The translations under genes were made by a program, and so were the position numbers. A stretch of DNA of 64,000 nucleotides from Nemertoderma westbladi (lineage: Eukaryota > Animalia > Xenacoelomorpha), in contig JAUCBJ010009081.1 in assembly GCA_032718475.1 (NCBI GenBank), positions 1 to 64,000 on the forward strand. Reading direction: 5' to 3'. The notes under the pieces were generated by a model. The model was not told the DNA's origin. It ran no database searches and was given only the letters and a program-made list of their open reading frames with translations. Positions 329 to 35,331 of the stretch are shown here, piece by piece. The number at the start of each line of letters is the position of its first letter. The first letter of the stretch is position 1.

Positions 329-330
329 GT

Positions 331-4241: not shown

Positions 4242-7200
4242 AAATTGGTATATTTGATATTTTTATAGGTTTTTTGAGGTTTGTTTTATAGTGCCCCCAA
4301 GGAAGCGAATGATTTTTATTAACCCAATAAAGTTTATCGTCAAAGCTACTGAGTGCAAATTTATTTTGCTTTAAGGTATAAATACGATGTAATTTAGATT
4401 GAAATCTGTGTATGTTTTTTTTTATTTCTTCATTTGAGTTATATGCTTTTAAATATTCTTCATGTGTAATATTCGTTTCCACAACAGCTCTTGTAATACC
4501 TTTTGCTCTACGAATATTTTTGTTATTCCATTCCAAAATTGAATATAATTTTGGTCTTAAAAATACTGCTTGTTTAATTTCACGTGAGGCTAGTTCGTCT
4601 TTACAGTAATTGAGTTGGGATTTATTTTTATCGCTGTAGAGAGGGTGATCCATAGGGTAATTGGAAGTATCTAAAATATTATTTTTAATTAATGCTTTTA
4701 AAAAATTATTCTGCGATGTATTATAGTAACAACCTATTAAAAGAGTCTGTGTCTGATGCAGCAATTTTCAATACGACAGTTTTAATTCTTTCTCAATAGG
4801 TAGCAATTTATTGTAGAAACAGCTCATACATATCCAATTTAGCCAAGTCCAAACACAGCGCTACCAATAAAATATAGGCTTATCGAGAGTTTACAGAGTC
4901 TTTCACTAATAAAATGTCCCGATAATGTATTATTGTATATTATAAATTGTTTCATGATTAATACGATTTACCAATTGATCGCATTTATCATTGCTATTTT
5001 GCGATACGAAAAGTTTACATCGATCTCTTATCTTTTCTATTGATTTGCCAAACAGTGAATTATTGAGCAATTTCGCGACAGCAGTTTTCAATGTAACTTT
5101 TTTGCTAGGCGCCCTTTGATTAATATTAAAAATCTATGTAATTTTTAAATACAAATTCTTGTTGAAAAGAATATAATTTATGTAGTTTAGTAACAATTAA
5201 TCCATGTTTTATATAAAATTTTAACAGTTTCAAATGTAAATGATAAAACTCTTTATCAAATTGCGTCAGCAAGAGTTTTGGTGTAGGCATCCTATATTTA
5301 CGGGAGGTACCTCTTTGTATCGATAAATTATTAAATTGTTCCCTCATATAAGGTGAAAGCATTGATTCATTTATACTTAAATGCTCTGGAGCTAACGGTA
5401 ATTGTAATGTTTGATTGTGAATAGCTTTAGGATAATTTAAATCACATATTAAAAAATATCCAGTAGATCCATCAATGTCTAAATCTACCAAGTACTCGAT
5501 TAGTTTTTCTGGAATTGCATTCTCTAAATGTTTAATACTTACTTCTTTGAATTGCGAGGTGGGTAGTTTTTTACTTAAATTCCCTGAATATAAAGAGTTG
5601 AAATCAATATTAAAAATATGGCATTCTTCCTTAGTAGAATCATATGTACTTGTTCCTGGTATATTTGATTCTATATAATGCTTTCGACAAAATGAAACAC
5701 CACCCCTAATTGATTTTTCAAAATCTCTATATGTCTGATAATCCTTTATTAATTCTATTTTACATTTATTATATTTTAGTGCGCAATCATAGGTAAATGA
5801 CGCGATACTACAGTAAAAAACCACTTCTAAATCGTAATTTTGTTTACAAACATTCCTAAAATTCTCAAATATATCAGCAAGCAAACAAACATCGAGTTTT
5901 AAATAGGCTAAAAGATAATCTTTGAGATTCACACAGTCGAATTCAACCCATGATAATTCCGCAAACCTATAATCTTCAATTGTACATGTTTTTTGACTTA
6001 AGTTACTAAAAAAATTATTTATAGATGGCAAACTAGTATCATTAAATTTATTAATATCTGTCAAGTACTCGTATGGAAATACTCCTTTCCGTTTAATTGT
6101 TGAGTTATTCAAGTTTGGATAAAAATATTTCATTTCTTGTAGAGTAATAGGTAAAATTGAGCTTATATCATGACTCGCTACATCCTTTGTTGAACACTCA
6201 ACTAAATTACTTAAAGAAAAGCTTAAAAATTGATATGTGTCCAAGAAACGTAACTCAATTTTTTTAGAAGTGTTTTTAATTGGGATAAATGCACTCAGTG
6301 AAATATATCGTTCTGTATTTCTCGGTATAACCTTTATATCCCAATCTGTGTATTTCTTATCTCTAAATCCTGGTTTGTAATATACAATGTATATCGTAGT
6401 TGTTGGAATTGTGCCCGCAAAGTACATACAGGTATCGTTTCAATGATAAACTTCGGTTACAACTATTACAGGCTGCCGCAATATATTTACCAGTAATATG
6501 TGAATGGTGTCTGTTTTTCCCAACATTATTATTTAAAGTAACATTACAATAGAAACAGAATTTTGCTTGTTCAAAATTTACAAAATCAATATTAGTAAAT
6601 GACATGGTTTTATGAGTGTATATGTCTGACCAACAACATAATTCAGTTAAATCAGTATATAATGAATCTAAGAAATCTTGAATACAATTATTATTATTAT
6701 TTGTCTTTACAAATGTTTTCAAATGACATTTTGGTGGGTCAATTAATTCAGTATTGGGAACAATTAAATAACTCACAGCACACGGTATATGCTCCTGTAT
6801 AAATTGATTATTAACTGAAGGTTGTAAGATACATTCTATATCAAAGTAGGTGACAAACAATGGGGATAAGGTTCTATCTAAATTTGTAAAACTAATGTGT
6901 GTTCTTTTTTTATTAGGTAGTTTCTCGCGCTGACTTCTTCCTTGGTAGCATACGAGACGGTGTCGATGAAGAACTTCCGCTCGAAAAAAATGAGCCAAGC
7001 ACCTTTCACAAAATTGCCTACCTCGGGTATGAAGAGCTCTCGTATTCAGCAATCGATTCAAGTTAGTTATGCAAACATAATGATTCAGTTTAGGTACATT
7101 GTTATTTTTTACTACAAGTAATATATTTAATAACTGTTTATCAGGTGTAATTTTACTAAACGGAGGTTGTCTTAATATAGATACAGGAGTGTGTTTGTTG

Positions 7201-8267
7201 TCGTTATTCCAACATAGTAAATTAATTATATATTTTGAATTTTGTTTTTCAAAAAGTTTAATCGCTAACTGCCACTCTGTTGGATAATCTTTGTTCCCAT
7301 TGTCAAAAATGAAATGACTCATATAATTTTTGTACAATGAAGTATGGTTTTTGTTGTTTTTCACTTTGCTACCAAATTTTGCGGATATAATAGCCCATTT
7401 GAAACAATCATTATCAGCTGTTTGTATATTTATTGTACATTTTTTAGCTGATAAAGCCTTAGGTAATTCCATATATCCATGCCCCTTATATAGTAACGAC
7501 CTACACTTAGATTCAGCTAATTTAATTTCAACCCTTAATAAAGATTTAATACGCCACCCCGAACCACGTGTGTTAAAGATGGCTATTTTTTGTAATATAT
7601 TTCCCAGCACATACTCAAACCATGTGTCAAAACTTTGCAGTGAATCTACAGTATTAATAGCACCACCGGAAGAATTAAAATGAAAGGTTTCCAATTGCTC
7701 GCCTTCTGAAAAATGTGATCTGTACATTAATACATTTAGACCTAACCACAGTCTAAGAACATTCATTTCTTTCAATCTATCTAATATTAACTGAAGAATA
7801 TTACCTCGAATTTGTGCTAATGCTGTTTCTACATCGGGATAATCTCTAGAAGTTGGGAGGTCGTGGACATAAATTTCAAGACGATTATCGTGAGCTTCTT
7901 GTTCCCGCGTAAAAATTGTTGCGCATGTACCAAGAGCCACCCTTAAGTTTTTTCTGGATATTATATTTTTATGTTGCGGAAATTTACTCTTTCTTGTGTA
8001 GTAACATTTCAAGTGACAGTCGTGTCGTATATAATTCTCATATGTATACTCTTTATTACAGGTAGAACAAGTCAATTGATAGGTGCGGAACTCCATTTCT
8101 TTACAACCAGTAGTTGATTCATGTCGTTTACAAATTTCGCTGCATGAAGTCACGACATGACACTTAAAACAAGAATAACCTTCAAAATGTGACCGTAGGT
8201 GGCGTAAGTAATTATGTCTAGTTACATTCATATGACAGAATGAACAACATATTGTTATTTTATCCAT
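4189..8267 (-). CDS. Protein-primed family B DNA polymerase (pPolB), split by several frameshifts
   Basis: N-terminal Zn-finger motifs, GSGW/CFKWAI, YFDIEC (ExoI), endonuclease VII-like C..C..HSHITGKY..AACNSCN, HNSNNYD (ExoII), KGVFPYEY, YLKLDV, SIRGG, DFNSLY (motif A), KLLNNSLFGK (motif B, about 5045-5075), SDTDS (about 4745-4760), LRPKLYS, AKGI. Frameshifts near 6375, 5128 and within 4740-4940. Confidence 0.92.
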
Positions 8268-8459
8268 GTTGAAGTTTGTTTAGATAAATAATAATAATAA
8301 TAATAATAATAAAATATGTCCAAAGATTAAAATAAAATGAAATGATATGATATTGACTATATCTAAACATTTATATGCTAGCGAGGGAAATAATTTTAAA
8401 CCAATCACCAATCGCTTATGGCTATTGGAAACCACAAAGAGTTTAACTTATGATTAGGT

Positions 8460-9525
8460 TTACATATTAGGATAATAATCAGGTTTCCATGGAGAATTAG
8501 TAACAGGCTCTACTAGAACTGGGTTACTGACAACTTTCTGTTTCTTTGCAGGTGATGCGGTGGTAAATTTACTCGATGATCTTGGCTTCCGAGGTAATAT
8601 TTCAGGAAAGACCTGTTGCGGTTGAGAGCAACTCTCTTCAACATCCGGATTAGGTGATGGGATCTCTACGAATGCTTTAGGTTTATCCAAAAGGACAAAA
8701 CCGTCAACACGGGCTTCAGTAAGAGAAACGCCATCCATCGATTCTTTGAGAAAACTAATATGGGCTTTATCATTCAAGTAATGCAACTCGATAGAATTTC
8801 CGCCGGCACCTACTTCAGTAGAATTATCGGTGTTGGTGATAATAATTTTTTTATTATTGGTTTTAATCATTTTGAGACGGTCTGATAATTGAATGATATT
8901 TTTATCAAAAAGATGCTTGTCTGTTTCATCGACTTGGTTGTCCCACTCTCGCAACAAAACGGATAGTTCCTGTTTTGACAAATTGAAACCCGTATAATAG
9001 TTAAAACCAACACTATCAGCGTATCTGAGGCTGATTTTCCATAAGCCAACATAGTTGGTTCCTTTAAAAGCTGTTACAAATCCAATAAACTCTGGATTTG
9101 ATAATTCAATGTAGAATTGATCGCTAATAATCTCTAGCGGTGGAGAGAGAAATTGCAATAATTTCCCTCTGTATTGAATTAGAACTTCAGTAAAAGCTTT
9201 GTTGAGAACTTTACATTTGCCTTGTTTCTGAACGTAAACATCACCCGATGTGGGGTTGATGGAAATATTCAAATTTCCCCGCGCAAAACGAAGAGTGGGA
9301 TATATCCTACCTGGTATAATTGCTGGTCTGGATTGATGTTGGTTGTTGTTGGTTGTTTCTAGAATGTCTAACAGATAGCGGAAAAACAATATGGGAAAAA
9401 CAAATTGATTCGTTGTCCACCTGAGATTCCACAATAAAATACTTGCTGTGAACGACGGTACAAGTATATTTATTGTAAGTAAATTTCCAGCTATTTGTTG
9501 CTCCGGTTTTTTGCGTTAAGGCCAT
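8460..9525 (-). CDS. Maverick protein with a PC4/Sub1-like ssDNA-binding domain; probable start at ATG 9525 with a frameshift near 9380
   Basis: FVTAFKGTNYVGLWK...TGFNLSKQELSVL resembles PC4 (VSVRDFKGKVLIDIREY...KGISLNPEQWSQL). C-terminal basic NLS-like PAKKQK. Confidence 0.55.
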
Positions 9526-9949
9526 AATAATAATAAATACGAAAAATATTACAAGTGATAAATTTTAAACCGTATCGCTGTAATAAATTGACACCATAGT
9601 TCTCACTCTAAAATTGTGTTTGGTAAAACGATAGAGAAAATAAGAGATCACATTTCTCGTTTCTATTAGTAATTAATTAGCAAAGAAAAATGCAATCTTG
9701 TATCTTCTCTATTGTTTTACCAATTTTTTTTACTGGTTTTACAACTCCAATGTTGGAATCAGTATCATTTATTTGAGTGTATGATTTTCCGACCAACGAA
9801 TATACAACGAGTAAGATAATGAAGAAATTATTAAGGAAATAACATAATTTCAGAGTGAGAACAAAAAAAATTAGATATGGTATCAATATATTACCATGAA
9901 GATTACAAGTGATGAATTTTATTAAAAACATTCAGTTATATATAAATTT

Positions 9950-11195: not shown

Positions 11196-11491
11196 AGATG
11201 GCTGGTCAGCGTAACAGGCACGTTATTACTCGTGCGACCGCCCATGGGTTCCACCACCTAATCTGCGTCAACCAAACGCCTTTCCACTCGCTATCCACCG
11301 AATGTATATGTCAGTACTGTAACCTCCCATGTACACGACGATATCATGCACTGAACTGCAGCGACTGCCCTCCACTTTCCCGTCTCGCATCTCAATAACT
11401 AATAATTGTATTCAATTTATTTTCTATTTATTTATGTACATTAATTTTACTGGTTTCCATTTACCCCGCCTGGGGGTGTATCGAATTAATA
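11196..11491 (+). mobile_element. 5'-truncated non-LTR retrotransposon with 18-bp target-site duplication
   Basis: TAATTCGCTGATATTGGA flanks the insert (11178-11195 and 11492-11509). The insert encodes HGFHHLIC...CQYCNLPCTRRYHALNC, a CCHC-type ORF2 C-terminus, then an AT-rich 3' tail. Confidence 0.7.
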
Positions 11492-11647
11492 TAATTCGCT
11501 GATATTGGATTTGCGTCAATTGCCCCCGTTCCTTACAATTCTCTGCGATGTGATTGTATAAATTTATATGTAACAACTCGCTACGAAGTCTCACCGGAAT
11601 GAAGTTGAAATTTTAGATAAATAAATAAATAATTCTTTGAAACTAAC

Positions 11648-11800
11648 TTGCATTCCTTGACCAGCAGTTTGGTAATAAAGTCCTTGGCTTCGTCTGATAT
11701 GCAATCAAATTCCTCAGCGTCGAAGTCCCATGCTGCCATGGTTACATTGCACAAGGTCTCCGTGTCAGTGTCTCCCATAAAAGGTGACAATCCGCTCAAC
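11648..11800 (-). CDS. MYLK: MLCK-type kinase exon 6 (subdomains IX-XI)
   Basis: tttag|G TTG AGC GGA...: LSGLSPFMGDTDTETLCNVTMAAWDFDAEEFDCISDEAKDFITKLLVKEC, donor AA|GTTAGT; phase 2-2. Confidence 0.92.
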
Positions 11801-11826
11801 CTAAATATATTAACCATTACAATCTG

Positions 11827-14800
11827 ACCGAACTTAGAGAACATAAGTTATGTAAACAATCCGTATATCCCCTAAACCAAACTTACAGAACATAAGTTAT
11901 GTAAACAATCCGTCTATCCCACCTAAACCGAACTTACAGAACATAAGTTATGTAAACAATCCGTCTATCCCCTAAACCAAACTTACAGAACATAAGTTAT
12001 GTAAACAATCCGTCTATCCAACCTAAACCAAACTTACAGAACATAAGTTATGTAAACAATCCGTCTATCCCACCTAAACCGAACTTACAGAACATAAGTT
12101 ATGTAAACAATCCGTATATCCCCTAAACCAAACTTACAGAATATAAGTTATGTTAAATAATCCGTCAATCCCACCTAAACCGAACTTACAGAACATAAGT
12201 TATGTAAACAATCCGTCTATCCCCTAAACCAAACTTACAGAACATAAGTTATGTAAACAATCCGTCTATCCAACCTAAACCAAACTTACAGAACATAAGT
12301 TATGTAAACAATCCGTCTATCCCTTAAACCAAACTTACAGAATATAAGTTATGTAAACAATCCGTCTATCCCCTAAACCAAACTTACAGAACATAAGTTA
12401 TGTAAACAATCCGTCTATCCAACCTAAACCAAACTTACAGAACATAAGTTATGTAAACAATCCGTCTATCCCACCTAAACCGAACTTACAGAACATAAGT
12501 TATGTAAACAATCCGTCTATCCCCTAAACCAAACTTACAGAACATAAGTTATGTAAACAATCCGCCTATCCAACCTAAACCAAACTTACAGAACATAAGT
12601 TATGTAAACAATCCGTTCATCCAACCTAAACCGACCTTACAGAACAAAAGTTATGTAAACAATCCGTTTATCCAACCTAAACCAAACTTACAAAACATAA
12701 GTGATGTAAACAATCCGTTTATCCAACCTAAACCGAGCGTACAGAACATGAGTTATGTAAACAATCCGTCTATCCCCTAAACCAAACTTACAAAACATAA
12801 GTTATGTAAACAATCCGTTTATCCAACCTAAACCAACCCTTAGAGAACATGAGTTATGTAAACAATCCATTTATCCCTTAAACCGAACTTACAGAACATA
12901 TGTTATGTAAACAATCCGTCTATCCCCTAAACCAAACTTACAGAACATAAGTTATGTAAACAATCCGTCTATCCCCTAAACCAAACTTACAGAACATAAG
13001 TTATGTAAACAATCCATTTATCCCCTAAACCGAACTTACAGAACATAAGTTATGTAAACAATCCGTTTATCCAACCCAAACCAAACTTACAGAACATAAG
13101 TTATGTAAACAATCCGTCTATCCAACCTAAACCGAGCGTACAGAACATGAGTTATGTAAACAATCCGTCTATCCCCTAAACCAAACTTACAAAACATAAG
13201 TTATGTAAACAATCCGTTTATCCAACCTAAACCAAACTTAGAGAACATAAGTTATGTAAACAAGTCGTTTATCCAACCTAAACCAACCTTAGAGAACATA
13301 AGTTATGTAAACAATCCATTTATCCCTTAAACCGAACTTACAGAACATAAGTTATGTAAACAATCCGTTTATCCAACCCAAACCAAACTTACAGAACATA
13401 AGTTATGTAAACAATCCATTTATCCCCTAAACCGAACTTACAGAACATAAGTTATGTAAACAATCCGTTTATCCAACCCAAACCAAACTTACAGAACATA
13501 AGTTATGTAAACAATCCGTCTATCCAACCTAAACCGAGCGTACAGAACATGAGTTATGTAAACAATCCGTCTATCCCCTAAACCAAACTTACAAAACATA
13601 AGTTATGTAAACAATCCGTCTATCCAACCTAAACCAAACTTACAAAACATAAGTTATGTAAACAATCCGTCTATCCCCTAAACCAAACTTACAGAACATA
13701 AGTTATGTAAACAATCCGTCTATCCAACCTAAACCGAGCGTACAGAACATGAGTTATGTAAACAATCCGTCTATCCCCTAAACCAAACTTACAAAACATA
13801 AGTTATGTAAACAATCCGTTTATCCAACCTAAACCAACCCTTAGAGAACATAAGTTATGTAAACAAGTCGTTTATCCAACCTAAACCAAACTTACAGAAC
13901 ATAAGTTATGTAAACAATCCGTCTATCCAACCTAAACCAAACTTACAGAACATGAGTTATGTAAACAATCCGTCTATCCCCTAAACCAAACTTACAGAAC
14001 ATAAGTTATGTAAACAATCCGTCTATCCCCTAAACCAAACTTACAGAACATAAGTTATGTAAACAATCCGTCTATCCCCTAAACCAAACTTACAGAACAT
14101 AAGTTATGTAAACAATCCGTCTATCCCCTAAACCAAACTTACAGAACATAAGTTATGTAAACAATCCGTCTATCCAACCTAAACCAAACTTACAGAACAT
14201 AAGTTATGTAAACAATCCGTTTATCCAACCTAAACCAACCCTTAGAGAACATAAGTTATGTAAACAAGTCGTTTATCCAACCTAAACCAAACTTACAGAA
14301 CATAAGTTATGTAAACAATCCGTCTATCCAACCTAAACCAAACTTACAGAACATGAGTTATGTAAACAATCCGTCTATCCCCTAAACCAAACTTACAGAA
14401 CATAAGTTATGTAAACAATCCGTCTATCCCCTAAACCAAACTTAGAGAACATAAGTTATGTAAACAAGTCGTTTATCCAACCTAAACCAAACTTACAGAA
14501 CATAAGTTATGTAAACAATCCGTCTATCCAACCTAAACCAAACTTACAGAACATAAGTTATGTAAACAATCCGTCTATCCCCTAAACCGAACTTACAGAA
14601 CATAAGTTATGTAAACAATCCGTTTATCCAACCTAAACCAACCCTTAGAGAACATAAGTTATGTAAACAAGTCGTTTATCCAACCTAAACCAAACTTACA
14701 AAACATAAGTTATGTAAACAATCCGTTTATCCAACCTAAACCAAACTTACAAAACATAAGTTATGTAAACAATCCGTTTATCCAACCTAAACCAACCCTT

Positions 14801-17800
14801 AGAGAACATAAGTTATGTAACAATCCGTCTATCCCCTAAACCGAACTTACAGAACATAAGTTATGTAAACAATCCGTCTATCCCCTAAACCGAACTTACA
14901 GAACATAAGTTATGTAAACAATCCGTTTATCCAACCTAAACCAACCCTTAGAGAACATAAGTTATGTAAACAAGTCGTTTATCCAACCTAAACCAAACTT
15001 ACAAAACATAAGTTATGTAAACAATCCGTTTATCCAACCTAAACCAAACTTACAAAACATAAGTTATGTAAACAATCCGTTTATCCAACCTAAACCAACC
15101 CTTAGAGAACATAAGTTATGTAACAATCCGTCTATCCAACCTAAACCGAACTTACAGAACATAAGTTATGTAAACAATCCGTCTATCCCCTAAACCGAAC
15201 TTACAGAACATAAGTTATGTAAACAATCCGTTTATCCAACCTAAACCAACCCTTAGAGAACATAAGTTATGTAACAATCCGTCTATCCAACCTAAACCGA
15301 ACTTACAGAACATAAGTTATGTAAACAATCCGTCTATCCCCTAAACCGAACTTACAGAACATAAGTTATGTAAACAATCCGTTTATCCAACCTAAACCAA
15401 CCCTTAGAGAACATAAGTTATGTAACAATCCGTATATCCCCTAAACCAAACTTACAGAACATAAGTTATGTAAACAATCCGTCTATCCCACCTAAACCGA
15501 ACTTACAGAACATAAGTTATGTAAACAATCCGTATATCCCCTAAACCAAACTTACAGAACATAAGTTATGTAAACAATCCGTCTATCCCACCTAAACCGA
15601 ACTTACAGAACATAAGTTATGTAAACAATCCGTCTATCCCCTAAACCGAACTTACAGAACATAAGTTATGTAAACAATCCGTTTATCCAACCTAAACCAA
15701 CCCTTAGAGAACATAAGTTATGTAAACAATCCGTCTATCCCCTAAACCAAACTTACAGAACATAAGTTATGTAAACAATCCGTTTATCCAACCTAAACCA
15801 ACCCTTAGAGAACATAAGTTATGTAAACAATCCGCCTATCCAACCTAAACCGAACTTACAGAACATAAGTTATGTAAACAATCCGTCTATCCAACCTAAA
15901 CCAACCCTTAGAGAACATAAGTTATGTAAACAATCCGCCTATCCAACCTAAACCAAACTTACAAAACATAAGTTATGTAAACAATCCGTCTATCCCCTAA
16001 ACCAAACTTACAGAACATAAGTTATGTAAACAATCCGTCTATCCCACCTAAACCGAACTTACAGAACATAAGTTATGTAAACAATCCGTCTATCCCCTAA
16101 ACCGAACTTACAGAACATAAGTTATGTAAACAATCCGTTTATCCAACCTAAACCAACCCTTAGAGAACATAAGTTATGTAAACAATCCGTTTATCCAACC
16201 TAAACCAACCCTTAGAGAACATAAGTTATGTAAACAATCCGCCTATCCAACCTAAACCAACCCTTAGAGAACATAAGTTATGTAAACAATCCGTCTATCC
16301 CCTAAACCGAACTTACAGAACATAAGTTATGTAAACAATCCGTTTATCCAACCTAAACCAAACTTACAGAACATAAGTTATGTAAACAATCCGCCTATCC
16401 AACCTAAACCAACCCTTAGAGAACATAAGTTATGTAAACAATCCGTCTATCCCCTAAACCAAACTTACAGAACATAAGTTATGTAAACAATCCGTTTATC
16501 CAACCTAAACCAAACTTACAGAACATAAGTTATGTAAACAATCCATTTATCCCCCAAACCAAACTTAGAGAACATAAGTTATGTAAACAATCCGTCTATC
16601 CAACCTAAACCAAACTTACAGAACATAAGTTATGTAAACAATCCGTCTATCCCCTAAACCGAACTTACAGAACATAAGTTATGTAAACAATCCGTCTATC
16701 CCCTAAACCGAACTTACAGAACATAAGTTATGTAAACAATCCGTTTATCCAACCTAAACCAAACTTACAGAACATAAGTTATGTAAACAATCCGCCTATC
16801 CAACCTAAACCAACCCTTAGAGAACATAAGTTATGTAAACAATCCGTCTATCCCCTAAACCAAACTTACAGAACATAAGTTATGTAAACAATCCGTTTAT
16901 CCAACCTAAACCAAACTTACAGAACATAAGTTATGTAAACAATCCATTTATCCCCCAAACCAAACTTAGAGAACATAAGTTATGTAAACAATCCGTCTAT
17001 CCAACCTAAACCAAACTTACAGAACATAAGTTATGTAAACAATCCGTCTATCCCCTAAACCGAACTTACAGAACATAAGTTATGTAAACAATCCGTTTAT
17101 CCAACCTAAACCAACCCTTAGAGAACATAAGTTATGTAAACAATCCGTTTATCCAACCTAAACCAACCCTTAGAGAACATAAGTTATGTAAACAATCCGC
17201 CTATCCAACCTAAACCAACCCTTAGAGAACATAAGTTATGTAAACAATCCGTCTATCCCCTAAACCAAACTTACAGAACATAAGTTATGTAAACAATCCG
17301 TTTATCCAACCTAAACCAAACTTACAGAACATAAGTTATGTAAACAATCCGCCTATCCAACCTAAACCAACCCTTAGAGAACATAAGTTATGTAAACAAT
17401 CCGTCTATCCCCTAAACCAAACTTACAGAACATAAGTTATGTAAACAATCCGTTTATCCAACCTAAACCAAACTTACAGAACATAAGTTATGTAAACAAT
17501 CCATTTATCCCCCAAACCAAACTTAGAGAACATAAGTTATGTAAACAATCCGTCTATCCAACCTAAACCAAACTTACAGAACATAAGTTATGTAAACAAT
17601 CCGTTCATCCAACCTAAACCGACCTTACAGAACAAAAGTTATGTAAACAATCCGTTTATCCAACCTAAACCAAACTTACAGAACATGAGTTATGTAAACA
17701 ATCCGTCTATCCCCTAAACCAAACTTACAGAACATAAGTTATGTAAACAATCCGTCTATCCCCTAAACCAAACTTACAGAACATAAGTTATGTAAACAAT

Positions 17801-20800
17801 CCGTCTATCCAACCTAAACCAAACTTACAGAACATAAGTTATGTAAACAATCCGTCTATCCAACCTAAACCGAGCGTACAGAACATGAGTTATGTAAACA
17901 ATCCGTCTATCCCCTAAACCAAACTTACAAAACATAAGTTATGTAAACAATCCGTTTATCCAACCTAAACCAAACTTACAGAACATAAGTTATGTAAACA
18001 ATCCGTCTATCCAACCTAAACCAAACTTACAGAACATAAGTTATGTAAACAATCCGTCTATCCCCTAAACCAAACTTACAAAACATAAGTTATGTAAACA
18101 ATCCGTTTATCCAACCTAAACCAAACTTACAGAACATAAGTTATGTAAACAATCCGTCTATCCAACCTAAACCAAACTTACAGAACATAAGTTATGTAAA
18201 CAATCCGTTTATCCAACCTAAACCAACCCTTAGAGAACATAAGTTATGTAAACAATCCGTCTATCCAACCTAAACCAAACTTACAGAACATAAGTTATGT
18301 AAACAATCCGTTTATCCAACCTAAACCAACCCTTAGAGAACATAAGTTATGTAAACAATCCGTCTATCCAACCTAAACCAAACTTACAGAACATAAGTTA
18401 TGTAAACAATCCGTTTATCCAACCTAAACCAACCCTTAGAGAACATAAGTTATGTAAACAATCCGCCTATCCAACCTAAACCAAACTTACAGAACATAAG
18501 TTATGTAAACAATCCGTTCATCCAACCTAAACCGACCTTACAGAACAAAAGTTATGTAAACAATCCGTTTATCCAACCTAAACCAAACTTACAGAACATG
18601 AGTTATGTAAACAATCCGTCTATCCCCTAAACCAAACTTACAGAACATAAGTTATGTAAACAATCCGTCTATCCCCTAAACCAAACTTACAGAACATAAG
18701 TTATGTAAACAATCCGTCTATCCAACCTAAACCAAACTTACAGAACATAAGTTATGTAAACAATCCGTTCATCCAACCTAAACCGACCTTACAGAACAAA
18801 AGTTATGTAAACAATCCGTTTATCCAACCTAAACCAAACTTACAGAACATGAGTTATGTAAACAATCCGTCTATCCCCTAAACCAAACTTACAGAACATA
18901 AGTTATGTAAACAATCCGTCTATCCCCTAAACCAAACTTACAGAACATAAGTTATGTAAACAATCCGTCTATCCAACCTAAACCAAACTTACAGAACATA
19001 AGTTATGTAAACAATCCGTTTATCCAACCTAAACCAACCCTTAGAGAACATAAGTTATGTAAACAATCCGTTTATCCAACCTAAACCAACCCTTAGAGAA
19101 CATAAGTTATGTAAACAATCCGCCTATCCAACCTAAACCAAACTTACAGAACATAAGTTATGTAAACAATCCGTTCATCCAACCTAAACCGACCTTACAG
19201 AACAAAAGTTATGTAAACAATCCGTTTATCCAACCTAAACCAAACTTACAGAACATGAGTTATGTAAACAATCCGTCTATCCCCTAAACCAAACTTACAG
19301 AACATAAGTTATGTAAACAATCCGTCTATCCCCTAAACCAAACTTACAGAACATAAGTTATGTAAACAATCCGTCTATCCAACCTAAACCAAACTTACAG
19401 AACATAAGTTATGTAAACAATCCGTCTATCCAACCTAAACCGAGCGTACAGAACATGAGTTATGTAAACAATCCGTCTATCCCCTAAACCAAACTTACAA
19501 AACATAAGTTATGTAAACAATCCGTTTATCCAACCTAAACCAAACTTACAGAACATAAGTTATGTAAACAATCCGTCTATCCAACCTAAACCAAACTTAC
19601 AGAACATAAGTTATGTAAACAATCCGTTTATCCAACCTAAACCGAGCGTACAGAACATGAGTTATGTAAACAATCCGTCTATCCCCTAAACCAAACTTAC
19701 AAAACATAAGTTATGTAAACAATCCGTTTATCCAACCTAAACCGAGCGTACAGAACATGAGTTATGTAAACAATCCGTCTATCCCCTAAACCAAACTTAC
19801 AAAACATAAGTTATGTAAACAATCCGTTTATCCAACCTAAACCAACCCTTAGAGAACATAAGTTATGTAAACAAGTCGTTTATCCAACCTAAACCAAACT
19901 TACAGAACATGAGTTATGTAAACAATCCGTCTATCCCCTAAACCAAACTTACAGAACATAAGTTATGTAAACAATCCGTCTATCCCCTAAACCAAACTTA
20001 CAGAACATAAGTTATGTAAACAATCCGTCTATCCAACCTAAACCAAACTTACAGAACATAAGTTATGTAAACAATCCGTCTATCCCCTAAACCAAACTTA
20101 GAGAACATAAGTTATGTAAACAAGTCGTTTATCCAACCTAAACCAAACTTACAGAACATAAGTTATGTAAACAATCCGTCTATCCAACCTAAACCAAACT
20201 TACAGAACATGAGTTATGTAAACAATCCGTCTATCCCCTAAACCAAACTTACAGAACATAAGTTATGTAAACAATCCGTTTATCCAACCTAAACCAACCC
20301 TTAGAGAACATAAGTTATGTAAACAAGTCGTTTATCCAACCTAAACCAAACTTACAGAACATAAGTTATGTAAACAATCCGTCTATCCAACCTAAACCAA
20401 ACTTACAGAACATGAGTTATGTAAACAATCCGTCTATCCCCTAAACCAAACTTACAGAACATAAGTTATGTAAACAATCCGTCTATCCAACCTAAACCAA
20501 ACTTACAGAACATGAGTTATGTAAACAATCCGTCTATCCCCTAAACCAAACTTACAGAACATAAGTTATGTAAACAATCCGTCTATCCAACCTAAACCAA
20601 ACTTACAGAACATAAGTTATGTAAACAATACGTCTATCCCTTAAACCAAACTTACAGAACATAAGTTATGTAAACAATCCGTCTATCCCTTAAACCAAAC
20701 TTACAGAACATAAGTTATGTAAACAATCCGTCTATCCAACCTAAACCAAACTTACAGAACATGAGTTATGTAAACAATCCGTCTATCCCCTAAACCAAAC

Positions 20801-23765
20801 TTACAGAACATGAGTTATGTAAACAATCCGTCTATCCCCTAAACCAAACTTACAAAACATAAGTTATGTAAACAATCCGTCTATCCAACCTAAACCAAAC
20901 TTACAAAACATAAGTTATGTAAACAATCCGTCTATCCCCTAAACCAAACTTACAGAACATAAGTTATGTAAACAATCCGTTTATCCAACCTAAACCAACC
21001 CTTAGAGAACATAAGTTATGTAAACAATCCGTCTATCCAACCTAAACCAAACTTACAGAACATGAGTTATGTAAACAATCCGTCTATCCCCTAAACCAAA
21101 CTTACAGAACATGAGTTATGTAAACAATCCGTCTATCCCCTAAACCAAACTTACAGAACATAAGTTATGTAAACAATCCGTCTATCCCCTAAACCAAACT
21201 TACAGAACATAAGTTATGTAAACAAGTCGTTTATCCAACCTAAACCAACCTTAGAGAACATAAGTTATGTAAACAATCCATTTATCCCTTAAACCGAACT
21301 TACAGAACATAAGTTATGTAAACAATCCGTTTATCCAACCCAAACCAAACTTACAGAACATAAGTTATGTAAACAATCCGTCTATCCAACCTAAACCAAA
21401 CTTACAGAACATGAGTTATGTAAACAATCCGTCTATCCCCTAAACCAAACTTACAGAACATGAGTTATGTAAACAATCCGTCTATCCCCTAAACCAAACT
21501 TACAGAACATGAGTTATGTAAACAATCCGTCTATCCCCTAAACCAAACTTACAGAACATGAGTTATGTAAACAATCCGTCTATCCCCTAAACCAAACTTA
21601 CAGAACATGAGTTATGTAAACAATCCGTCTATCCCCTAAACCAAACTTACAGAACATGAGTTATGTAAACAATCCGTCTATCCCCTAAACCAAACTTACA
21701 AAACATAAGTTATGTAAACAATCCGTCTATCCAACCTAAACCAAACTTACAAAACATAAGTTATGTAAACAATCCGTTTATCCAACCTAAACCAACCCTT
21801 AGAGAACATAAGTTATGTAAACAATCCGTCTATCCAACCTAAACCGAACTTACAGAACATGAGTTATGTAAACAATCCGTCTATCCCCTAAACCAAACTT
21901 ACAGAACATGAGTTATGTAAACAATCCGTCTATCCCCTAAACCAAACTTACAGAACATAAGTTATGTAAACAATCCGTCTATCCCCTAAACCAAACTTAC
22001 AGAACATAAGTTATGTAAACAATCCGTCTATCCCCTAAACCAAACTTACAGAACATAAGTTATGTAAACAAGTCGTTTATCCAACCTAAACCAACCTTAG
22101 AGAACATAAGTTATGTAAACAATCCATTTATCCCTTAAACCGAACTTACAGAACATAAGTTATGTAAACAATCCGTTTATCCAACCCAAACCAAACTTAC
22201 AGAACATAAGTTATGTAAACAATCCGTCTATCCAACCTAAACCAAACTTACAGAACATGAGTTATGTAAACAATCCGTCTATCCCCTAAACCAAACTTAC
22301 AGAACATGAGTTATGTAAACAATCCGTCTATCCCCTAAACCAAACTTACAGAACATAAGTTATGTAAACAATCCGTCTATCCCCTAAACCAAACTTACAG
22401 AACATAAGTTATGTAAACAAGTCGTTTATCCAACCTAAACCAACCTTAGAGAACATAAGTTATGTAAACAATCCATTTATCCCTTAAACCGAACTTACAG
22501 AACATAAGTTATGTAAACAATCCGTTTATCCAACCCAAACCAAACTTACAGAACATAAGTTATGTAAACAATCCATTTATCCCCTAAACCGAACTTACAG
22601 AACATAAGTTATGTAAACAATCCGTTTATCCAACCCAAACCAAACTTACAGAACATAAGTTATGTAAACAATCCGTCTATCCAACCTAAACCGAGCGTAC
22701 AGAACATGAGTTATGTAAACAATCCGTCTATCCCCTAAACCAAACTTACAAAACATAAGTTATGTAAACAATACGTCTATCCAACCTAAACCAAACTTAC
22801 AGAACATAAGTTATGTAAACAATCCGTTTATCCAACCTAAACCGAGCGTACAGAACATGAGTTATGTAAACAATCCGTCTATCCCCTAAACCAAACTTAC
22901 AAAACATAAGTTATGTAAACAATCCGTCTATCCAACCTAAACCAACCCTTAGAGAACATAAGTTATGTAAACAATCCGTCTATCCCCTAAACCAAACTTA
23001 CAGAACATAAGTTATGTAAACAATCCGTCTATCCCCTAAACCAAACTTACAGAACATAAGTTATGTAAACAATCCATTTATCCCCCAAACCAAACTTAGA
23101 GAACATAAGTTATGTAAACAATCCGTCTATCCCCTAAACCAAACTTACAGAACATAAGTTATGTAAACAATCCGTTTATCCAACCTAAACCAACCCTTAG
23201 AGAACATAAGTTATGTAAACAATCCGTCTATCCCCTAAACCAAACTTACAGAACATAAGTTATGTAAACAATCCATTTATCCCCCAAACCAAACTTAGAG
23301 AACATAAGTTATGTAAACAATCCGTCTATCCCCTAAACCAAACTTACAGAACATAAGTTATGTAAACAATCCGTTTATCCAACCTAAACCAACCCTTAGA
23401 GAACATAAGTTATATAAACAATCCGTCTATCCCCTAAACCAAACTTACAGAACATAAGTTATGTAAACAATCCGTTTATCCAACCTAAACCAACCCTTAG
23501 AGAACATAAGTTATATAAACAATCCGTCTATCCCCTAAACCAAACTTACAGAACATAAGTTATGTAAACAATCCGTTTATCCAACCTAAACCAACCCTTA
23601 GAGAACATAAGTTATATAAACAATCCGTCTATCCCCTAAACCAAACTTACAGAACATAAGTTATGTAAACAATCCGTCTATCCAACCTAAACCAAACTTA
23701 GAGAACATAAGTTATGTAAACAATCCGTCTATCCCCTAAACCAAACTTACAGAACATAAGTTATG
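11827..23765. repeat. Intronic satellite, 49/51/52-bp unit, about 240 copies, containing the exon end and splice donor
   Basis: Unit cttacagaacataagttatgtaaacaatccgtctatcc(cc|aacc)taaaccaaa. The last copy overlaps exon 5 by 15 bp. Confidence 0.97.
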
Positions 23766-23950
23766 ACGCCGATACTCCACATATCCGTTCCGGGGCCGAG
23801 ACTCTCAAATCCTATAACTTCCGGCGCACAGAATTCCGGAGTTCCGAACATCGCCTTTACCGTTTCGTTCGGATTCATTTTCCGAGCCAAACCAAAGTCA
23901 ATTATTTTGATTTTGTTGCTGCGTTTATTGACGCAAAGTACATTTTCCGG
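23751..23950 (-). CDS. MYLK: MLCK-type kinase exon 5 (PEN, DFG, APE)
   Basis: ttaag|CCG GAA AAT: PENVLCVNKRSNKIKIIDFGLARK...FGTPEFCAPEVIGFESLGPGTDMWSIGVITYV, donor CT|GTAAGT; phase 0-2. Confidence 0.95.
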
Positions 23951-24519
23951 CTTAAACAAACATAATGTAACTTGTGTTTAGGTTTGTTTCCTCCAAATTA
24001 ATAACGGAGAGAAAAAGTGGTAAAATTATTATACTTTGCAAACTCATGTGGACCGTTTACATTTGTAATTGCCTCACTATTTTTAGTTAAATATCTTCCC
24101 ACAAAATCACCCGGCATAATAACCATTTCAGTTTGAACCACAGCTGGACAACTCTTCATTTCAAATGCGTCATTTTTTTTACAAAATATTTTTTGTTCCA
24201 AAATATCGAAGAGTATGCATTATTCGAACGCTATTTCGGTGCTACGTGTAAAGCATGACGGAGATTACTGGTGTTCACTGCTGTAATGGTCAGGCCCCCT
24301 GATGTAATGCCTTTTGCAGTGGACATTTCGTGGACAAATTAAGGAAATTCCGTCTGTTTATAGAATTAATTGTACTTCTATTTTTGATCTGACACAATTT
24401 CTTCCACTTTATTAGAAACGTAATTTCAATTTAAAATTCGTAGAAAATAGATTTGTGATTGTAATATCAAACACAAAATATTAAATATAACGCTGAAATG
24501 AATATAATAAGACTTTCGA

Positions 24520-27383: not shown

Positions 27384-27525
27384 CTTCATATCCAGATGAA
27401 GAATGTTCCTTTCGTGCATAAACTTGGTACCTTCTAGAATTTGGATTAGGAAGAATATGCACATCCTTTCGGTTAGTTCAAACTCCTCGTCGATAACTCG
27501 TTCGAACAATTCGCCGCCTTCCAAC
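27384..27525 (-). CDS. MYLK: MLCK-type kinase exon 4 (subdomains V-VIb)
   Basis: ttcag|G TTG GAA: LEGGELFERVIDEEFELTERMCIFFLIQILEGTKFMHERNILHLDMK, donor AAG|GTATTT; phase 2-0. Confidence 0.95.
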
Positions 27526-28979
27526 CTGAAATAATAAGCAATTTAAGAAACACCGAACAAGTTTACTGGTTGAAATAATTTTTTTTAATGTGATTTATTG
27601 TGTGATACATGAAATATAAATATTCGATTTGCTCACAGATTGGTAGTGATGGCCACTTGGTGGCGGATAGCTTCGGTACCGGCACATGAAATAGGTGTGA
27701 AAACATAAGACACGAAGTGGGGCCTTCGCGCAACACGTGACTAACTCATGTTACGTGACAACTCGAAAGAATTATAAAAAAGATACATGTAGATGTTCCC
27801 TAATCACTTTACCACTTCGAGGGAGACTCGGTAACTGCAATGTTAACTTTAGAACTTTGTAATTGTTGATTTTATTATATGCAAATACAATAATAGTAGG
27901 GTTGCTGGCCTTATAACTGATAAATAGCCCCCGTGGTTAAATAATTATTTATTGCAAAATTTCACAATACAAATTGAAGTGAGTGATGAGGATCAATATA
28001 ATCACGCCACAACAATTATCTGTAAAAATTTCAATGTGTGCACTAACGTTCGTTACCACGCAACCGTTCCAAACATTTAAAATTCTTATTGTTATGTTAT
28101 GATACCAATTTATAGCTGCTCTAACTGTAACCTACTGTACCTACTGTACGTGCGTTCACATTCGATAGGTACCGAGACGGCTGGTATAACTTTTTTGAGT
28201 CCACGAAATATTTTAAATCTCATCAGAAATTTCACACTCATTTGTAAAACAAAAAGAGATGCAGTATTTTTTCATATACATGCAAGTACGCGCTTCGTAA
28301 TGTTAGAATACACTCACTCACTACTTTCGGCCGTCTAACAAAACCATAAAACCGAACCCCAATAGGGTCTGTTGACATTTTTAGCCGTGGGGAGCGTCAC
28401 CATAATACTATATTATATTTATAACCAAATCACCCAGGAAACTGTAAAATTGTTCTTTACACAGAATCATGTAAAAAGTATAGGGAAAGGAGAATATGTC
28501 CCCTGGTATGTCAACGCGGCGATATGGAAACCTGGCTTCTTCTGGGGGAGTAAAGAAAAAGGGTTGGATATTTACAGAGTGTTCACCCTTTGGGAGTTAG
28601 TGTGAAGACCTCCCTGCCTTATCCTTATAGGTAACAGCCAAGAGAGAGGAGCCTTCGTGTTGCGTCCGATGTTTCGTGTTTCACACGTTCACCAATAACT
28701 TCGTATGAAAGCGTATCTCATGCAGTGCACTACAGTCGTGCACTATTCTTCGACGTTCTGACTGCTGGCTGACCTTGAACCCAGCAGTGTATGATCTTAT
28801 TCTATCATTCTATGTCACTCAAATAACATGTATTTATGTTTTGTATGGTAAACATTATCTCTCTTACTCCCGAGGGAATATAATATTTATTGTGCACTGA
28901 ATGTAGTTATGGCAAATTTATCACGTACTGTCTGTGCATACACATTATAAAATTAGCAAAATTATAAAGAGTCATGTAC

Positions 28980-30218
28980 TTATTTCGTTACTTCGACACC
29001 ATTCCGTATGTGAGGTATGTAACTTTCTTTGTTTCGATATATGGGAAGTCTTTCTTGCGATACCCATTGCTGAAACCAATTAGGGAATTTATCCTCATGT
29101 AAATTAATATAAGATGATGCCGATGTGGATGCTGATTGGCTGGAGTTGGCAGCTGATTGATCCCTGGACTGTTTGCGGAAATGAACGTGTTTCTTATGGT
29201 TAAGGGGGATTTCAACTTCCCTTAGTATTTTCCCTGTGACGGAGGAATGTTTCTGAGGAAAACGTTTCAGTTTCGGTATGTCGATAACGTTGTGGCAGGC
29301 AAACGTCAACTCACGGTCGTTTCTCTTCGGAAACAGAACCGCTTCTATTAATCCCGGCGGTAGTTCGGGTTCGCGTAACACTAACTCGTCGTCACTCAAC
29401 CCCGATGGTTCCTCGGCGACAGAGGGTATGTTACTTGCGTTCGCCTTACCGTCAGCCTCTGTGTTGTTCGCCACTCCTCGCTTCCGATTTTTAGGAGAAA
29501 CATTAACAGCATCGTTTGGATTCTTAAACCAGTTGTTGAACGCCAAATCGCCTTCCGATTTGCGAATGACCCGTTTCGACACTTCGATATCATCCAATAG
29601 TTCTTCCTGGTAGTTTTTAATAGATTTTAGGTATTGAATATCATTTTGTTTTTTATTGTTTGCCAGCTGCCACTCGGCGTGCGCCAAGGCGCGAGCGCAA
29701 TCCCTGTGGCCCCACAACCGCGCCAAATCGACGGGAAGATGACCCCGTAGGTCTCTCCGATCGATCCGACCCCGAGATTTAATGATCTCTTCGAGGCAGT
29801 GAAGGTGTCCCTCCTGGGCAGCCTGGTGGGCGGGGCTGGTTCCATCTTCATTGCTAAGACTAGTATCCGATCCATTCTCCAATAGGTAATGACATATTTT
29901 GTAGGCGTTCCTACCGGTTTGATTGTTTATACACAGGAGTAGAGCCGTCCACCCGTTGGCGCTAGGTTGGTTCACATCGGCGCGGCATTCATCCACAAGG
30001 TACTCGACACACGCGTAACGCCCTTGTAACGCGGCCAGATGTAACACTGTCATTCCGTTCTTGTCCAACAGTGTGCTTTTCTCCTGGTCTCCGTTCATAC
30101 ACGATCGTAGCCACTTCAGATCGCCGACTCCCGCTGCCATGAATATATCCTCGCTGCCGCGTTTCTTTCGCCGTGTCGTCGACGGCAGTGACGGGGTTAC
30201 TTGTTTTAACTCGGCCAT
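28980..30218 (-). CDS. ANKRD53: Ankyrin-repeat protein, ANKRD53-like, intronless, nested in a kinase intron
   Basis: 412-aa ORF with about 4 ankyrin repeats. GHLPVDLARLWGHRDCARALAHAEWQ resembles ANKRD53 (GYKPIDFCKIWNHRACARFLKDAMWK, recalled from memory). Confidence 0.8.
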   Translation of the reverse strand: MAELKQVTPSLPSTTRRKKRGSEDIFMAAGVGDLKWLRSCMNGDQEKSTLLDKNGMTVLHLAALQGRYACVEYLVDECRADVNQPSANGWTALLLCINNQTGRNAYKICHYLLENGSDTSLSNEDGTSPAHQAAQEGHLHCLEEIIKSRGRIDRRDLRGHLPVDLARLWGHRDCARALAHAEWQLANNKKQNDIQYLKSIKNYQEELLDDIEVSKRVIRKSEGDLAFNNWFKNPNDAVNVSPKNRKRGVANNTEADGKANASNIPSVAEEPSGLSDDELVLREPELPPGLIEAVLFPKRNDRELTFACHNVIDIPKLKRFPQKHSSVTGKILREVEIPLNHKKHVHFRKQSRDQSAANSSQSASTSASSYINLHEDKFPNWFQQWVSQERLPIYRNKESYIPHIRNGVEVTK

Positions 30219-31551
30219 CGTATTAACTGGATGGGGTTGAACGAACTGTTTTGGAAATTATAATATAACATAAAGTATAATGTGTATGGTGGGTAATTAT
30301 TATATTAGTGTATTACTATTAAAGTTTCAGATGATATTTTTTTGAAAATTTATTCAAATATAAAATACACTTTACTTTATTTATTTGTATTTAATTTTAA
30401 ATTAATTATTTATTTGTACTTTATTTTAAATTAATTAATTGTATCTTAGCTTTATAGATTGATAGATAGGTTTAAACAATAGATTTAAAACATAAATAAA
30501 CACTAATTAATATACTTGCTATGAATGAATTCAAGTTTTATTCATTTTGAATATTTCTTATTTCATATCTTATTTGTATTCTGTATATCATTTTAGTTTG
30601 AAGTTTCACTTAAGGCGATTGTTTTTATAGTGCGCTCACCAATAAACGTAACTTATGAGTGTGTTGAGTAATTTAAAATATTATACTTTTTTATGTTTGA
30701 CAATTTATTTACAAATAATAAAAAGTATGTTAAGTTAACTTAACGTTAAGTATATCAAAATAAAAGTTCGGGCCTACACCAACACCAGTAATAATGATAA
30801 TAAAACGTTTAATGTGAGATGGGAGATGGCCCAGTGTAGTTTCAAATTTATTTTAAGTTTTACATGTAAATTTAAATATTATATTATTATTGTAATGAAA
30901 AAAAAAACAGTACGATTTGGAGATAAATAATATGTTGGTATCATTTCATTTAGTATAAATAGGGTTACGTTGAATGTATTTGGCAGTGAAAAAAATTAGC
31001 TTAACTTTGTTTATAATAGTTGCTAGGCAACATCCACAGAACCGTACAATAAAGTAAAGGTTTGCTTTTAATATTTACAGCATATTGATATCTTTATGAT
31101 GTAAGCTGTTCAACTATATCAACCGATATATTATATATCATATGAAATTGAGAAAAATAGAAATAAGAAAAAGAAAATTACCCCATGAATTACAACTTAA
31201 TATTTAATGCTGAATTAATTCAACATTTTCCATTCGTTATTCTTCAGGTGCCAACAATGTTATTGCACTTATTTTTATCGTGGCCTCTCTCAAATTGTCT
31301 TTCTATCTCATGTGTCTATCTCTATGACCTGCTCCGGTATGTGACAGGACAGAAATCTTGTAATTTGCTTCATAAGGAGTGCAGCCATTCAGGACACTGT
31401 CTATATTGTATCGAAGCAAACGACACAGGTGTTATCGCCAGGGCGAGGATCGGTTGGGGGGATGGCCTGCGGGTTGGTGCGAGGGGGGTCGGGGCCTTGA
31501 GGGACGGAGAGCGGGCGAAAAACGGATGGTTTCGAGGGGACTGGGGCCCTA

Positions 31552-34664: not shown

Positions 34665-34868
34665 ATTTCCAATATAAGAATAATTTCCTTTTTATATTTG
34701 AAGGCGTCGTAAAGCTGCAGCAGTCTGGGATGTTGTAATTCTTTCATTATCTCGATCTCATTAATACAGGCCTTAATTTCGTTTTGATCCATCGTTTGAA
34801 TGAATTTCGCGGCTAAAATTTTACCCCCTTTTTTTTCTTTTGCTCGGTGTACAGCTCCAAATTTCCCT
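34665..34868 (-). CDS. MYLK: MLCK-type kinase exon 3 (Gly loop, catalytic Lys, helix C); not in the ORF track
   Basis: ttgcag|A GGG AAA TTT GGA: GKFGAVHRAKEKKGGKILAAKFIQTMDQNEIKACINEIEIMKELQHPRLLQLYDAFKYKKEIILILE, donor AT|GTGAGT; phase 2-2. Confidence 0.95.
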
Positions 34869-35210: not shown

Positions 35211-35331
35211 CTTCCCAATTCCTCCATAACTTCATATATGTCTTTATACGGTACATCGTTGTGCAAAACCACCTTACGGACTTCGAAAGGGGCCTCTACC
35301 TCGGCGAGATCATCAAACTCACCAGGAGCAG
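35211..35331 (-). CDS. MYLK: MLCK-type kinase exon 2
   Basis: ttcag|CT GCT CCT: APGEFDDLAEVEAPFEVRKVVLHNDVPYKDIYEVMEELG, donor AG|GTACAA; phase 1-2, joins to give ELGRGKFG. Confidence 0.9.

What the first reader, a model, noticed from the sequence alone, without database searches (positions are those of the whole stretch)
11801..23765. A 12-kb intron built almost entirely from about 240 tandem copies of its own exon end and 5' splice site
Seen in sequence: on the gene strand, exon 5 ends CATAACTTATGTTCT|GTAAGT, and this junction is part of the repeat unit (GTAAGTTTGGTTTAG-G(TT)GGATAGACGGATTGTTTA-CATAACTTATGTTCT). The array starts 15 bp inside the coding exon and stops only 26 bp from the acceptor at 11801. 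Many units keep a perfect GTAAGT in identical exonic context; others carry GT>CT (CTAAG), including the copy nearest the acceptor. Reading past the first donor hits CTG TAA immediately. Inference: a tiny ancestral intron was inflated by amplifying its own boundary. The spliceosome must pick the first of many equivalent donors, or use the others as decoys or stepwise sites. Concerted evolution of the array could also feed changes into the coding sequence (ITYVL).
Basis: partly seen in the sequence, partly recalled or inferred. Interest (0 to 1): 0.88.

Follow-up and report, generated by a model that had tools for sequence, protein, structure and literature searches.

The report
Giant splice-donor minisatellite in kinase intron
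A 12-kb intron of an animal myosin-light-chain-kinase-like gene consists almost wholly of 238 tandem copies of the preceding exon's end and splice signal, yet the one assembled transcript found uses the first signal, so this is likely a harmless, very large example of a repeat type already known from human and lancelet genes.

Summary
Observation confirmed. The array has 238 units of 48-52 nt (23765-11827, minus strand), starts 15 nt inside a kinase exon and fills 99.8% of an 11,950-nt intron; 189 units keep GT, 49 carry CT. A spliced contig (run X4) joins the first donor exactly to the exon at 11800; no X4 contig carries the repeat. DNA runs of two individuals hold the array at high depth. 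In one run, depth is a constant 0.57 of the assembled counts, which argues against both an invented array and a large unlinked satellite. The kind is known: human F7, CBS, 6-16, LMNB2, ABCA7 (up to 10.7 kb, about 427 units) and lancelet 'mirages'; this scan also found it in at least 12 other genomes (unchecked notes). No support was found for recursive splicing, decoy function or feedback into the protein. Another exon start of the gene matches about as well, so I give this about even odds.

The parts
11827..23765 (-). Minisatellite array, 238 units of 48-52 nt; each unit = last 15 nt of the upstream exon + donor hexamer (GT in 189, CT in 49) + about 30 nt holding an AG and a stretch resembling the next exon's start
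23751..23950 (-). 200-nt kinase exon (PENVLC...ITYVL, Pkinase profile 126-188); its last 15 nt are the first repeat
   Evidence: covered without a difference by spliced contig X4 record 25
23745..23750 (-). Authentic donor GTAAGT, phase 2; the one used in the assembled transcript
11801..11826 (-). Non-repeat intron tail ending in the authentic acceptor AG; two substitutions (11808, 11813) in the second individual
11827..11852 (-). Last, partial unit with GT>CT at 11837-11836; no difference at this place is listed for either individual
11787..11805 (-). Acceptor plus first 14 nt of the downstream exon, which the 3' half of the 51-nt unit matches at 19 of 19 aligned letters with two gaps (3 and 1 nt)
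   Evidence: alignment; controls
11648..11800 (-). 153-nt downstream kinase exon (LSGLSPF...LLVKEC)
27384..27525 (-). Kinase exon upstream of the repeat-bearing exon; its start also resembles the unit's 3' half
34665..34868 (-). Kinase exon (glycine-rich loop, AAK lysine); joined by model, not by a read that I saw
35211..35331 (-). Predicted exon before the kinase domain; joined by model only

Best explanation
The intron is a minisatellite of 238 tandem copies of the gene's own exon end and 5' splice site, the assembled transcript uses the first copy, and the array is likely a neutral product of repeat expansion that survives because splicing removes it whole. Shown: the anatomy, the intact kinase frame, the first-donor join in one spliced contig, and the array in two individuals with different edge units. 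Inferred: a short tandem duplication across the donor seeded the unit, and unequal exchange or slippage amplified it in blocks (runs of 6-9 unit types recur). The spliceosome likely takes the most upstream donor, because the exon is defined from its own acceptor and the first site is transcribed first, as tested for human F7. Any later donor would add a stop right after the exon, so such RNAs would likely be lost by nonsense-mediated decay. Possible, about even odds: the founding duplication spanned the whole, then tiny, intron, so that each unit also holds a worn copy of the acceptor and of the next exon's start.
For: Unit anatomy. X4 record of 1801 nt: covers 23749-23953 with loose ends that are the two neighbouring exons and covers 11647-11800 with a loose end that is the upstream exon's end. 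X4 depth on the unit is 0 in both calls, although 102 of 237 units offer an in-frame, stop-free AG...GT pseudo-exon that decay would not remove. In X1, four variant-specific contigs stand at 26.0, 50.4, 42.9 and 19.8 times flank depth against 45.2, 87.3, 75.2 and 35.0 assembled copies, a ratio of 0.57-0.58 in 4 of 4. The second individual (X2, X3) has the array and other edge units. Block structure. No special RNA fold over the first units (z -0.94). Mechanism and class: PMC1557585, PMC5954066, PMC3087553.
Against: The transcript evidence is one contig from one study. The run is listed as 'DNA?' and is read as RNA only because it joins three exons at GT-AG sites and has no depth on unique intron stretches; contigs drop rare forms. 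Contig depth is, by the tool's own warning, no copy number; 0.57 may mean a shorter second allele, a depth bias or an assembled array that is too long, and X1 may be the source sample. In 6-16, CBS and ABCA7, downstream copies are used at low level, so minor use here is likely missed. The two copies nearest the real sites (unit 2 and the last) are both CT, and units 2-14 hold 7 CT, the highest of 225 windows (11 windows hold 6): a weak hint of selection rather than pure drift.
Confidence: 0.85

Rival explanations
1. The array is functional: internal donors and acceptors act as decoys, recursive steps or a dial that sends part of the RNA to decay or adds a 12-residue insert, tuning kinase level by array length.
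For: 188 of 237 downstream units keep GT; 102 of 237 form in-frame, stop-free pseudo-exons; the 36-nt class puts GT right after AG. ABCA7 VNTR length changes splicing in people. CT at both positions nearest the real sites.
Against: No X4 contig lies on the unit (absence in contigs is weak). The donor left after an internal AG would read GTTGGA, far from GTRAGT (sequence). The 15-16 nt between GT and AG inside a unit is far below the roughly 60-nt minimum cited in PMC3265369. Edge units differ between two individuals. The same 64 kb holds two other multi-kb arrays, so long arrays are common background here.
Confidence: 0.08
2. An unrelated satellite landed or grew here, and its match to the exon end is incidental or was written into the exon by conversion.
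For: The genome is rich in long arrays. No whole genome was held to search for other copies.
Against: The 15 exonic nt encode a motif conserved across animal kinases. Depth in X1 is below what this one locus predicts, leaving no room for a large unlinked family. No 14-mer is shared elsewhere in the window.
Confidence: 0.03
3. The array is real but the assembly overstates its length (true alleles nearer 130-140 units), or the 12-kb form is one long allele beside a much shorter one.
For: Depth ratio 0.57-0.58 in 4 of 4 contigs of X1. The unique contigs of X1, X2 and X3 stop at 23744, 8 nt short of the 23736 expected from the window alone, which suggests two alleles of the first unit.
Against: The window's only N run is the 100-N gap near 60978-61077, outside this array; the array has 47 ordered unit types; its make-up matches the read make-up by a constant factor. 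This rival changes the size, not the kind.
Confidence: 0.3

Closest known systems
Human F7 intron 7 37-bp VNTR, with CBS IVS13, 6-16, LMNB2 and PDGF cases (Borensztajn et al. 2006, PMC1557585; read: abstract, Discussion whole, passages of Introduction and Results; the other four genes only as cited there)
   Same: First unit spans the exon-intron boundary; identical donors follow in the intron; the most upstream one is used. A cited CBS title reports a substitution in the second repeat that prevents alternate splicing, and here unit 2 has GT>CT. A cited LMNB2 title describes a repeat covering most of an intron.
   Different: 5-25 copies there, 238 here; an invertebrate; the array ends 26 nt from the acceptor; the unit may also hold an acceptor and next-exon copy. 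That the pseudo-sites work when the first is lost was tested for F7, not here.
Human ABCA7 intron 18 25-bp VNTR (De Roeck et al. 2018, PMC5954066; read: passages)
   Same: Each unit begins with the donor GT; alleles reach 10,678 bp, about 427 units, so size and copy number are precedented; the canonical donor is the first.
   Different: That unit starts at the GT with no exon part; use of the second donor and exon skipping were seen there, none here (contigs only).
Amphioxus 'mirage' minisatellites in Adh3 and globins BflGb6, BflGb9 (Ebner et al. 2010, PMC3087553; read: passages)
   Same: Invertebrate chordate arrays that span a donor or an acceptor, do not disturb splicing, vary in length and have diverged edge units.
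   Different: BflGb6 has 3-6 units; each array described there copies one boundary. Here 238 units, and possibly both boundaries in one unit.
Intron gain by tandem duplication (Rogers model; Hellsten et al. 2011, PMC3265369, Results read; PMC3443670 passages; potato case PMC4974935, abstract)
   Same: The first donor and last acceptor of a tandem duplication are paired, and the frame is restored.
   Different: There the duplicated piece is exonic and makes a new intron; here the unit holds 15-16 nt that are absent from the mRNA, so an intron existed before. The 41-nt array at 55122-60977 fits the classical model better (untested).

Membership tests
Exon-intron-boundary minisatellite (F7 IVS7 type, amphioxus 'mirage') | Tandem array whose first unit spans an exon-intron boundary | tested here: met
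   First unit = 23765-23717; 15 nt exon + donor
Exon-intron-boundary minisatellite (F7 IVS7 type, amphioxus 'mirage') | Splice signal reiterated in the intron, in many but not all units | tested here: met
   188 of 237 downstream units keep GT, 49 carry CT
Exon-intron-boundary minisatellite (F7 IVS7 type, amphioxus 'mirage') | Mature RNA uses the authentic, most upstream donor | tested here: met
   One spliced contig of one study joins 23751 to 11800; rare forms cannot be seen in contigs
Exon-intron-boundary minisatellite (F7 IVS7 type, amphioxus 'mirage') | Alleles vary in length and in edge units | tested here: inconclusive
   Edge units differ in the second individual; length variation is only hinted by the 0.57 depth ratio
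Exon-intron-boundary minisatellite (F7 IVS7 type, amphioxus 'mirage') | Pseudo-sites become active when the first donor is mutated | not testable with these tools
   Needs a minigene
Recursive splicing (AG|GT ratchet points) | Acceptor followed at once by a strong reconstituted donor | tested here: not met
   The 36-nt class (124 of 237 units) has AG|GT, but what follows is GTTGGA or GTGGGA, not GTRAGT; judged against the recalled consensus, no scoring model was available
Recursive splicing (AG|GT ratchet points) | Intermediates or lariats ending inside the intron | not testable with these tools
   Only contigs were served
Intron gain by tandem duplication of an AGGT-bearing exon piece | Unit is wholly exonic, so one copy restores the intron-less exon | tested here: not met
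   The unit holds 15-16 nt from GT to AG that the spliced contig lacks
Genome-wide satellite DNA | Many unlinked copies | tested here: not met
   Depth of unit words in X1 is 0.57-0.58 of what this locus alone predicts; indirect, since no genome was held

The most novel reading that the evidence does not exclude
Each unit is a shrunken copy of the entire ancestral intron with both flanks: exon end, donor, a 15-nt remnant ending in AG, and the start of the next exon. A duplication between the GTCA shared by the two exons (now split by a 3-nt insert in the unit) copied an intron of perhaps 37 nt, and the copy was amplified about 240-fold, so the pre-mRNA carries about 190 donors, about 225 acceptor-like AGs and 102 in-frame 12-codon pseudo-exons, and the spliceosome pairs only the outermost sites. 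Together with the 41-nt AGGT array nearby, which may be an intron born inside an exon, this genome would show repeat expansion building and inflating introns directly from splice junctions.
Probability: 0.5. Interest if true: 0.5.

Novelty: new member of a known kind. Interest (0 to 1): 0.34.

Why it matters
As it stands it is a large natural test of 5' splice-site choice: one donor is picked over 124 identical copies in a 12-kb intron, extending the F7 'first site wins' rule to an invertebrate and to a scale met in ABCA7. It shows one way in which a small intron can grow to many kilobases without a transposon. If the unit holds both junctions, it adds a form that my searches did not find described, and its in-frame pseudo-exons give a decay-proof read-out of splicing errors. 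It does not point to a new mechanism or element.

Tried and rejected
No whole genome was held, so no genome-wide search for the unit and no intron-size survey. No RNA holder is listed on record; X4 was recognised as spliced only after laying. X4 has no cover on the unit or on unique intron stretches; as absence in contigs this is weak. X3's 1022-nt contig with diverged units, first suspected to be an unlinked copy, is the acceptor side of this locus. A repeat-free 37-nt allele was looked for: the acceptor-side contigs of X1, X2 and X3 all run on into repeat. An unanchored test of the unit's likeness to the acceptor was weak: 4 of 5442 control windows and 55 of 20000 shuffles reached the score. 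RNA structure as the reason for first-site choice: z -0.94. Enrichment of CT units near the donor: 7 of 13, but 11 of 225 other windows hold 6 and units spread in blocks; not accepted. Array at 36668-48259 as a coding repeat: 42 spacings carry a 37-nt frame-shifting unit, so not one open frame. For the 41-nt array's flanks, Pfam gave nothing meaningful, the Atlas did not answer, and the representatives search was still queued when I stopped: no verdict. Paper searches for a unit holding both junctions returned 0 or nothing relevant; two cited papers on introns from tandem arrays and internal duplication were not held and may bear on this. No supplements were opened. No earlier scan note on this genome or sequence.
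Full report
What is there. Tandem Repeats Finder reports one array at 11827-23765, period 51, 237.5 copies. Cutting it at the exon-end motif gives 238 units of 48-52 nt in 47 types. On the minus strand each unit reads: the last 15 nt of a coding exon, a donor hexamer, then about 30 nt. The hexamer is GTAAGT in 174 units, another GT form in 15 and CT in 49; 125 of 238 equal the real junction over 21 nt. Unit 2 and the last unit are CT. The intron 23750-11801 is 11,950 nt and 99.8% repeat. Reading through the first donor meets a stop at once.

The gene. The exon 23950-23751 matches Pkinase (E 1.6e-19). A search returned 57 proteins at E up to 1e-20 among 4242 candidates; most of those with an informative name are animal myosin light chain kinases, 45-74% identical over the exon. 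Five exons (35331-35211, 34868-34665, 27525-27384, 23950-23751, 11800-11648) join at GT-AG sites into a stop-free 272-aa frame. All 53 of the 57 homologues that span the junction align there without a gap, and 11 of 53 are identical over ITYVLLSGLSPF. The exon end is therefore old coding sequence, and the copying ran from exon to array. The organism is an unidentified animal.

Which donor is used. Four runs held the flanking DNA, none on record as RNA. Laid on both ends of the intron, run X4 gave one 1801-nt contig (depth 107.5) with no other letter. It covers 23749-23953 and runs on into the two neighbouring exons; it covers 11647-11800 and runs on into the upstream exon's own end, unique sequence included. 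Record positions 762 and 763 are 23751 and 11800. So the first donor is joined to the real acceptor. X4 has no depth on the unit nor on unique intron stretches, which is why I read it as RNA; a retrocopy would record the same splice. This is one contig of one study, and contigs drop rare forms.

Is the array real and single-locus? X1 (no difference from the window, possibly its source) and X2 and X3 (one other individual: 7 other letters and 8 gap letters in 557 nt of upstream intron) show summed depths in the thousands on the unit against 19-41 on the flank. For four variant-specific X1 contigs, depth over flank depth was 26.0, 50.4, 42.9 and 19.8, against mean assembled 31-mer counts of 45.2, 87.3, 75.2 and 35.0: a ratio of 0.57-0.58 each time. 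The tool warns that contig depth is no copy number, so this is a rough check. It says that the assembled mix of variants matches the reads, that there is no large unlinked family, and that the second allele may be much shorter or the assembled one somewhat long. The second individual has other units at the acceptor end, two substitutions in the 26-nt tail and the same CT in the last unit.

A twist. The 3' half of the 51-nt unit aligns to the real acceptor and first 14 nt of the next exon at 19 of 19 aligned letters with two gaps. Anchored at the AG it scores 22; 0 of 1716 other YAG sites in the window reach this, and 1 of 6000 shuffles of the unit's 30 nt does. The unit's own junction falls inside a GTCA shared by the end of one exon and the start of the other, with 3 nt inserted; the two dinucleotides would fit by chance about 0.3% of the time. 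This suggests that the founding duplication spanned the whole intron, which would then have been about 37 nt, the length of the last unit's intron part. Against it: I saw the likeness first and built the tests after. The unanchored test is weak (4 of 5442 windows, 55 of 20000 shuffles). Only 53 of 237 units score 22 or more, and the commonest type scores 15. The start of the exon at 27525 scores 20 with the same unit and 25 with 10 variant units. The model needs a 22-nt deletion and three small insertions. The tail can also be read as a decayed unit plus 18 nt of old intron. I put it at about even odds.

How it likely works. Shown: first-donor use in the assembled transcript. Inferred from F7, where 50 constructs showed that downstream identical donors work but lose to the most upstream one (PMC1557585): the exon is defined from its own acceptor and closed at the first donor met. 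Any later donor adds a stop, so its RNA would likely decay (established knowledge, not tested here). That filter does not apply to the 102 of 237 units that form an in-frame, stop-free AG...GT box of 33-36 nt; none shows in X4, a weak sign that splicing itself is accurate. The 15-16 nt from GT to AG within a unit is too short to splice (about 60 nt cited in PMC3265369). Internal AG|GT sites would leave GTTGGA or GTGGGA, poor donors by the recalled consensus, so recursive splicing has no support. No special fold covers the first units (z -0.94). Blocks of 6-9 unit types recur, as expected from unequal exchange. For feedback into the protein, 169 of 237 downstream units equal the exon end, 35 would give Y to H, 5 Y to F, 2 V to I and 26 are silent; the exon itself shows no such change in the other individual or in X4. 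The only hint of traffic into the first unit is that the unique contigs of all three DNA runs stop at 23744 rather than 23736, next to intron +8, where the array varies T/C (144 and 45 of 189). That is an inference about an intronic base.

Comparison with what is known. PMC1557585 lists F7, CBS, 6-16, LMNB2 and PDGF minisatellites whose first unit spans an exon-intron boundary (5-25 copies). The ABCA7 VNTR starts with the donor GT and reaches 10,678 bp, about 427 units (PMC5954066, passages). Amphioxus 'mirages' are the invertebrate counterpart and do not disturb splicing (PMC3087553, passages). PMC2812944 (passages) reports tandem repeats at exon-intron boundaries altering gene structure; PMC10078293 (passages) added nothing specific. 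The array meets the three defining features that I could settle (first unit spans the boundary, donors reiterated, first donor used); allele length variation stayed inconclusive. It is a member of this class. It is not intron gain by AGGT duplication and not a genome-wide satellite. Earlier notes of this scan record the same kind in at least 12 genomes, one of 10.5 kb with almost 300 donors; I did not check them. A unit holding both junctions did not turn up in my paper searches, which cover only part of the literature; two relevant cited papers were not held.

Verdict. Interest 0.34; about 0.5 if the whole-intron origin holds, for which I give 0.5.

Noticed in passing
window 55093-61159 (+): Array of 143 or more 41-nt units (N gap at about 60978-61077), 141 of 142 full units keeping CAG|GTAGG. 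With a single unit, the flanks read as one 139-nt exon-like box: AT-rich AG at 55091-55092, a 46-codon open frame, GTGAGT at 61160. Splicing the first AG|GT to the last would restore the frame, the classical AGGT intron-gain model. About 5% of non-array positions per strand lie in such a box by chance. A death-domain look is recalled only; Pfam gave nothing. Needs RNA.
   Followed up: partly
window 36668-48259: Third large array, 36-nt unit, about 320 copies. Its decayed ends read as a 12-residue repeat on the + strand, between a signal-peptide-like exon near 36392-36505 and a fibrinogen C domain at 51028-51852, but 42 spacings hold a 37-nt unit that shifts the frame.
   Followed up: partly
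window 1-9600: Maverick/Polinton-like element: adenain-type protease hit below cut-off at 304-783 and a weak TBP-like hit at 3663-4262; polymerase-like frames at about 4190-6440 lie in several pieces (recalled motifs, no Pfam hit). The kinase exon after 11648 is not in the window, so the element likely sits in the next intron of this gene.
   Followed up: no
window 28983-30257 (-): Single long ankyrin-repeat frame (425 aa stop to stop) nested in a kinase intron on the same strand.
   Followed up: no
window 11250-11493: Dispersed repeat with 10-50 times flank depth in the DNA runs and cover in X4; the second individual lacks 11551-11636.
   Followed up: no
window 23744: Unique contigs of X1, X2 and X3 all end here, 8 nt before the 23736 expected for 31-letter words, while the acceptor-side contig of X1 ends at 11860 as expected. 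Suggests two alleles at intron +8 of the first unit in both individuals; the branch contigs were not seen.
   Followed up: partly
window 27505-27530 (-): The acceptor and start of this kinase exon resemble the unit's 3' half about as well as the downstream exon does (score 20-25 against 22), and an edge unit of the second individual comes closer still by eye. Unexplained; chance or a more complex origin.
   Followed up: partly
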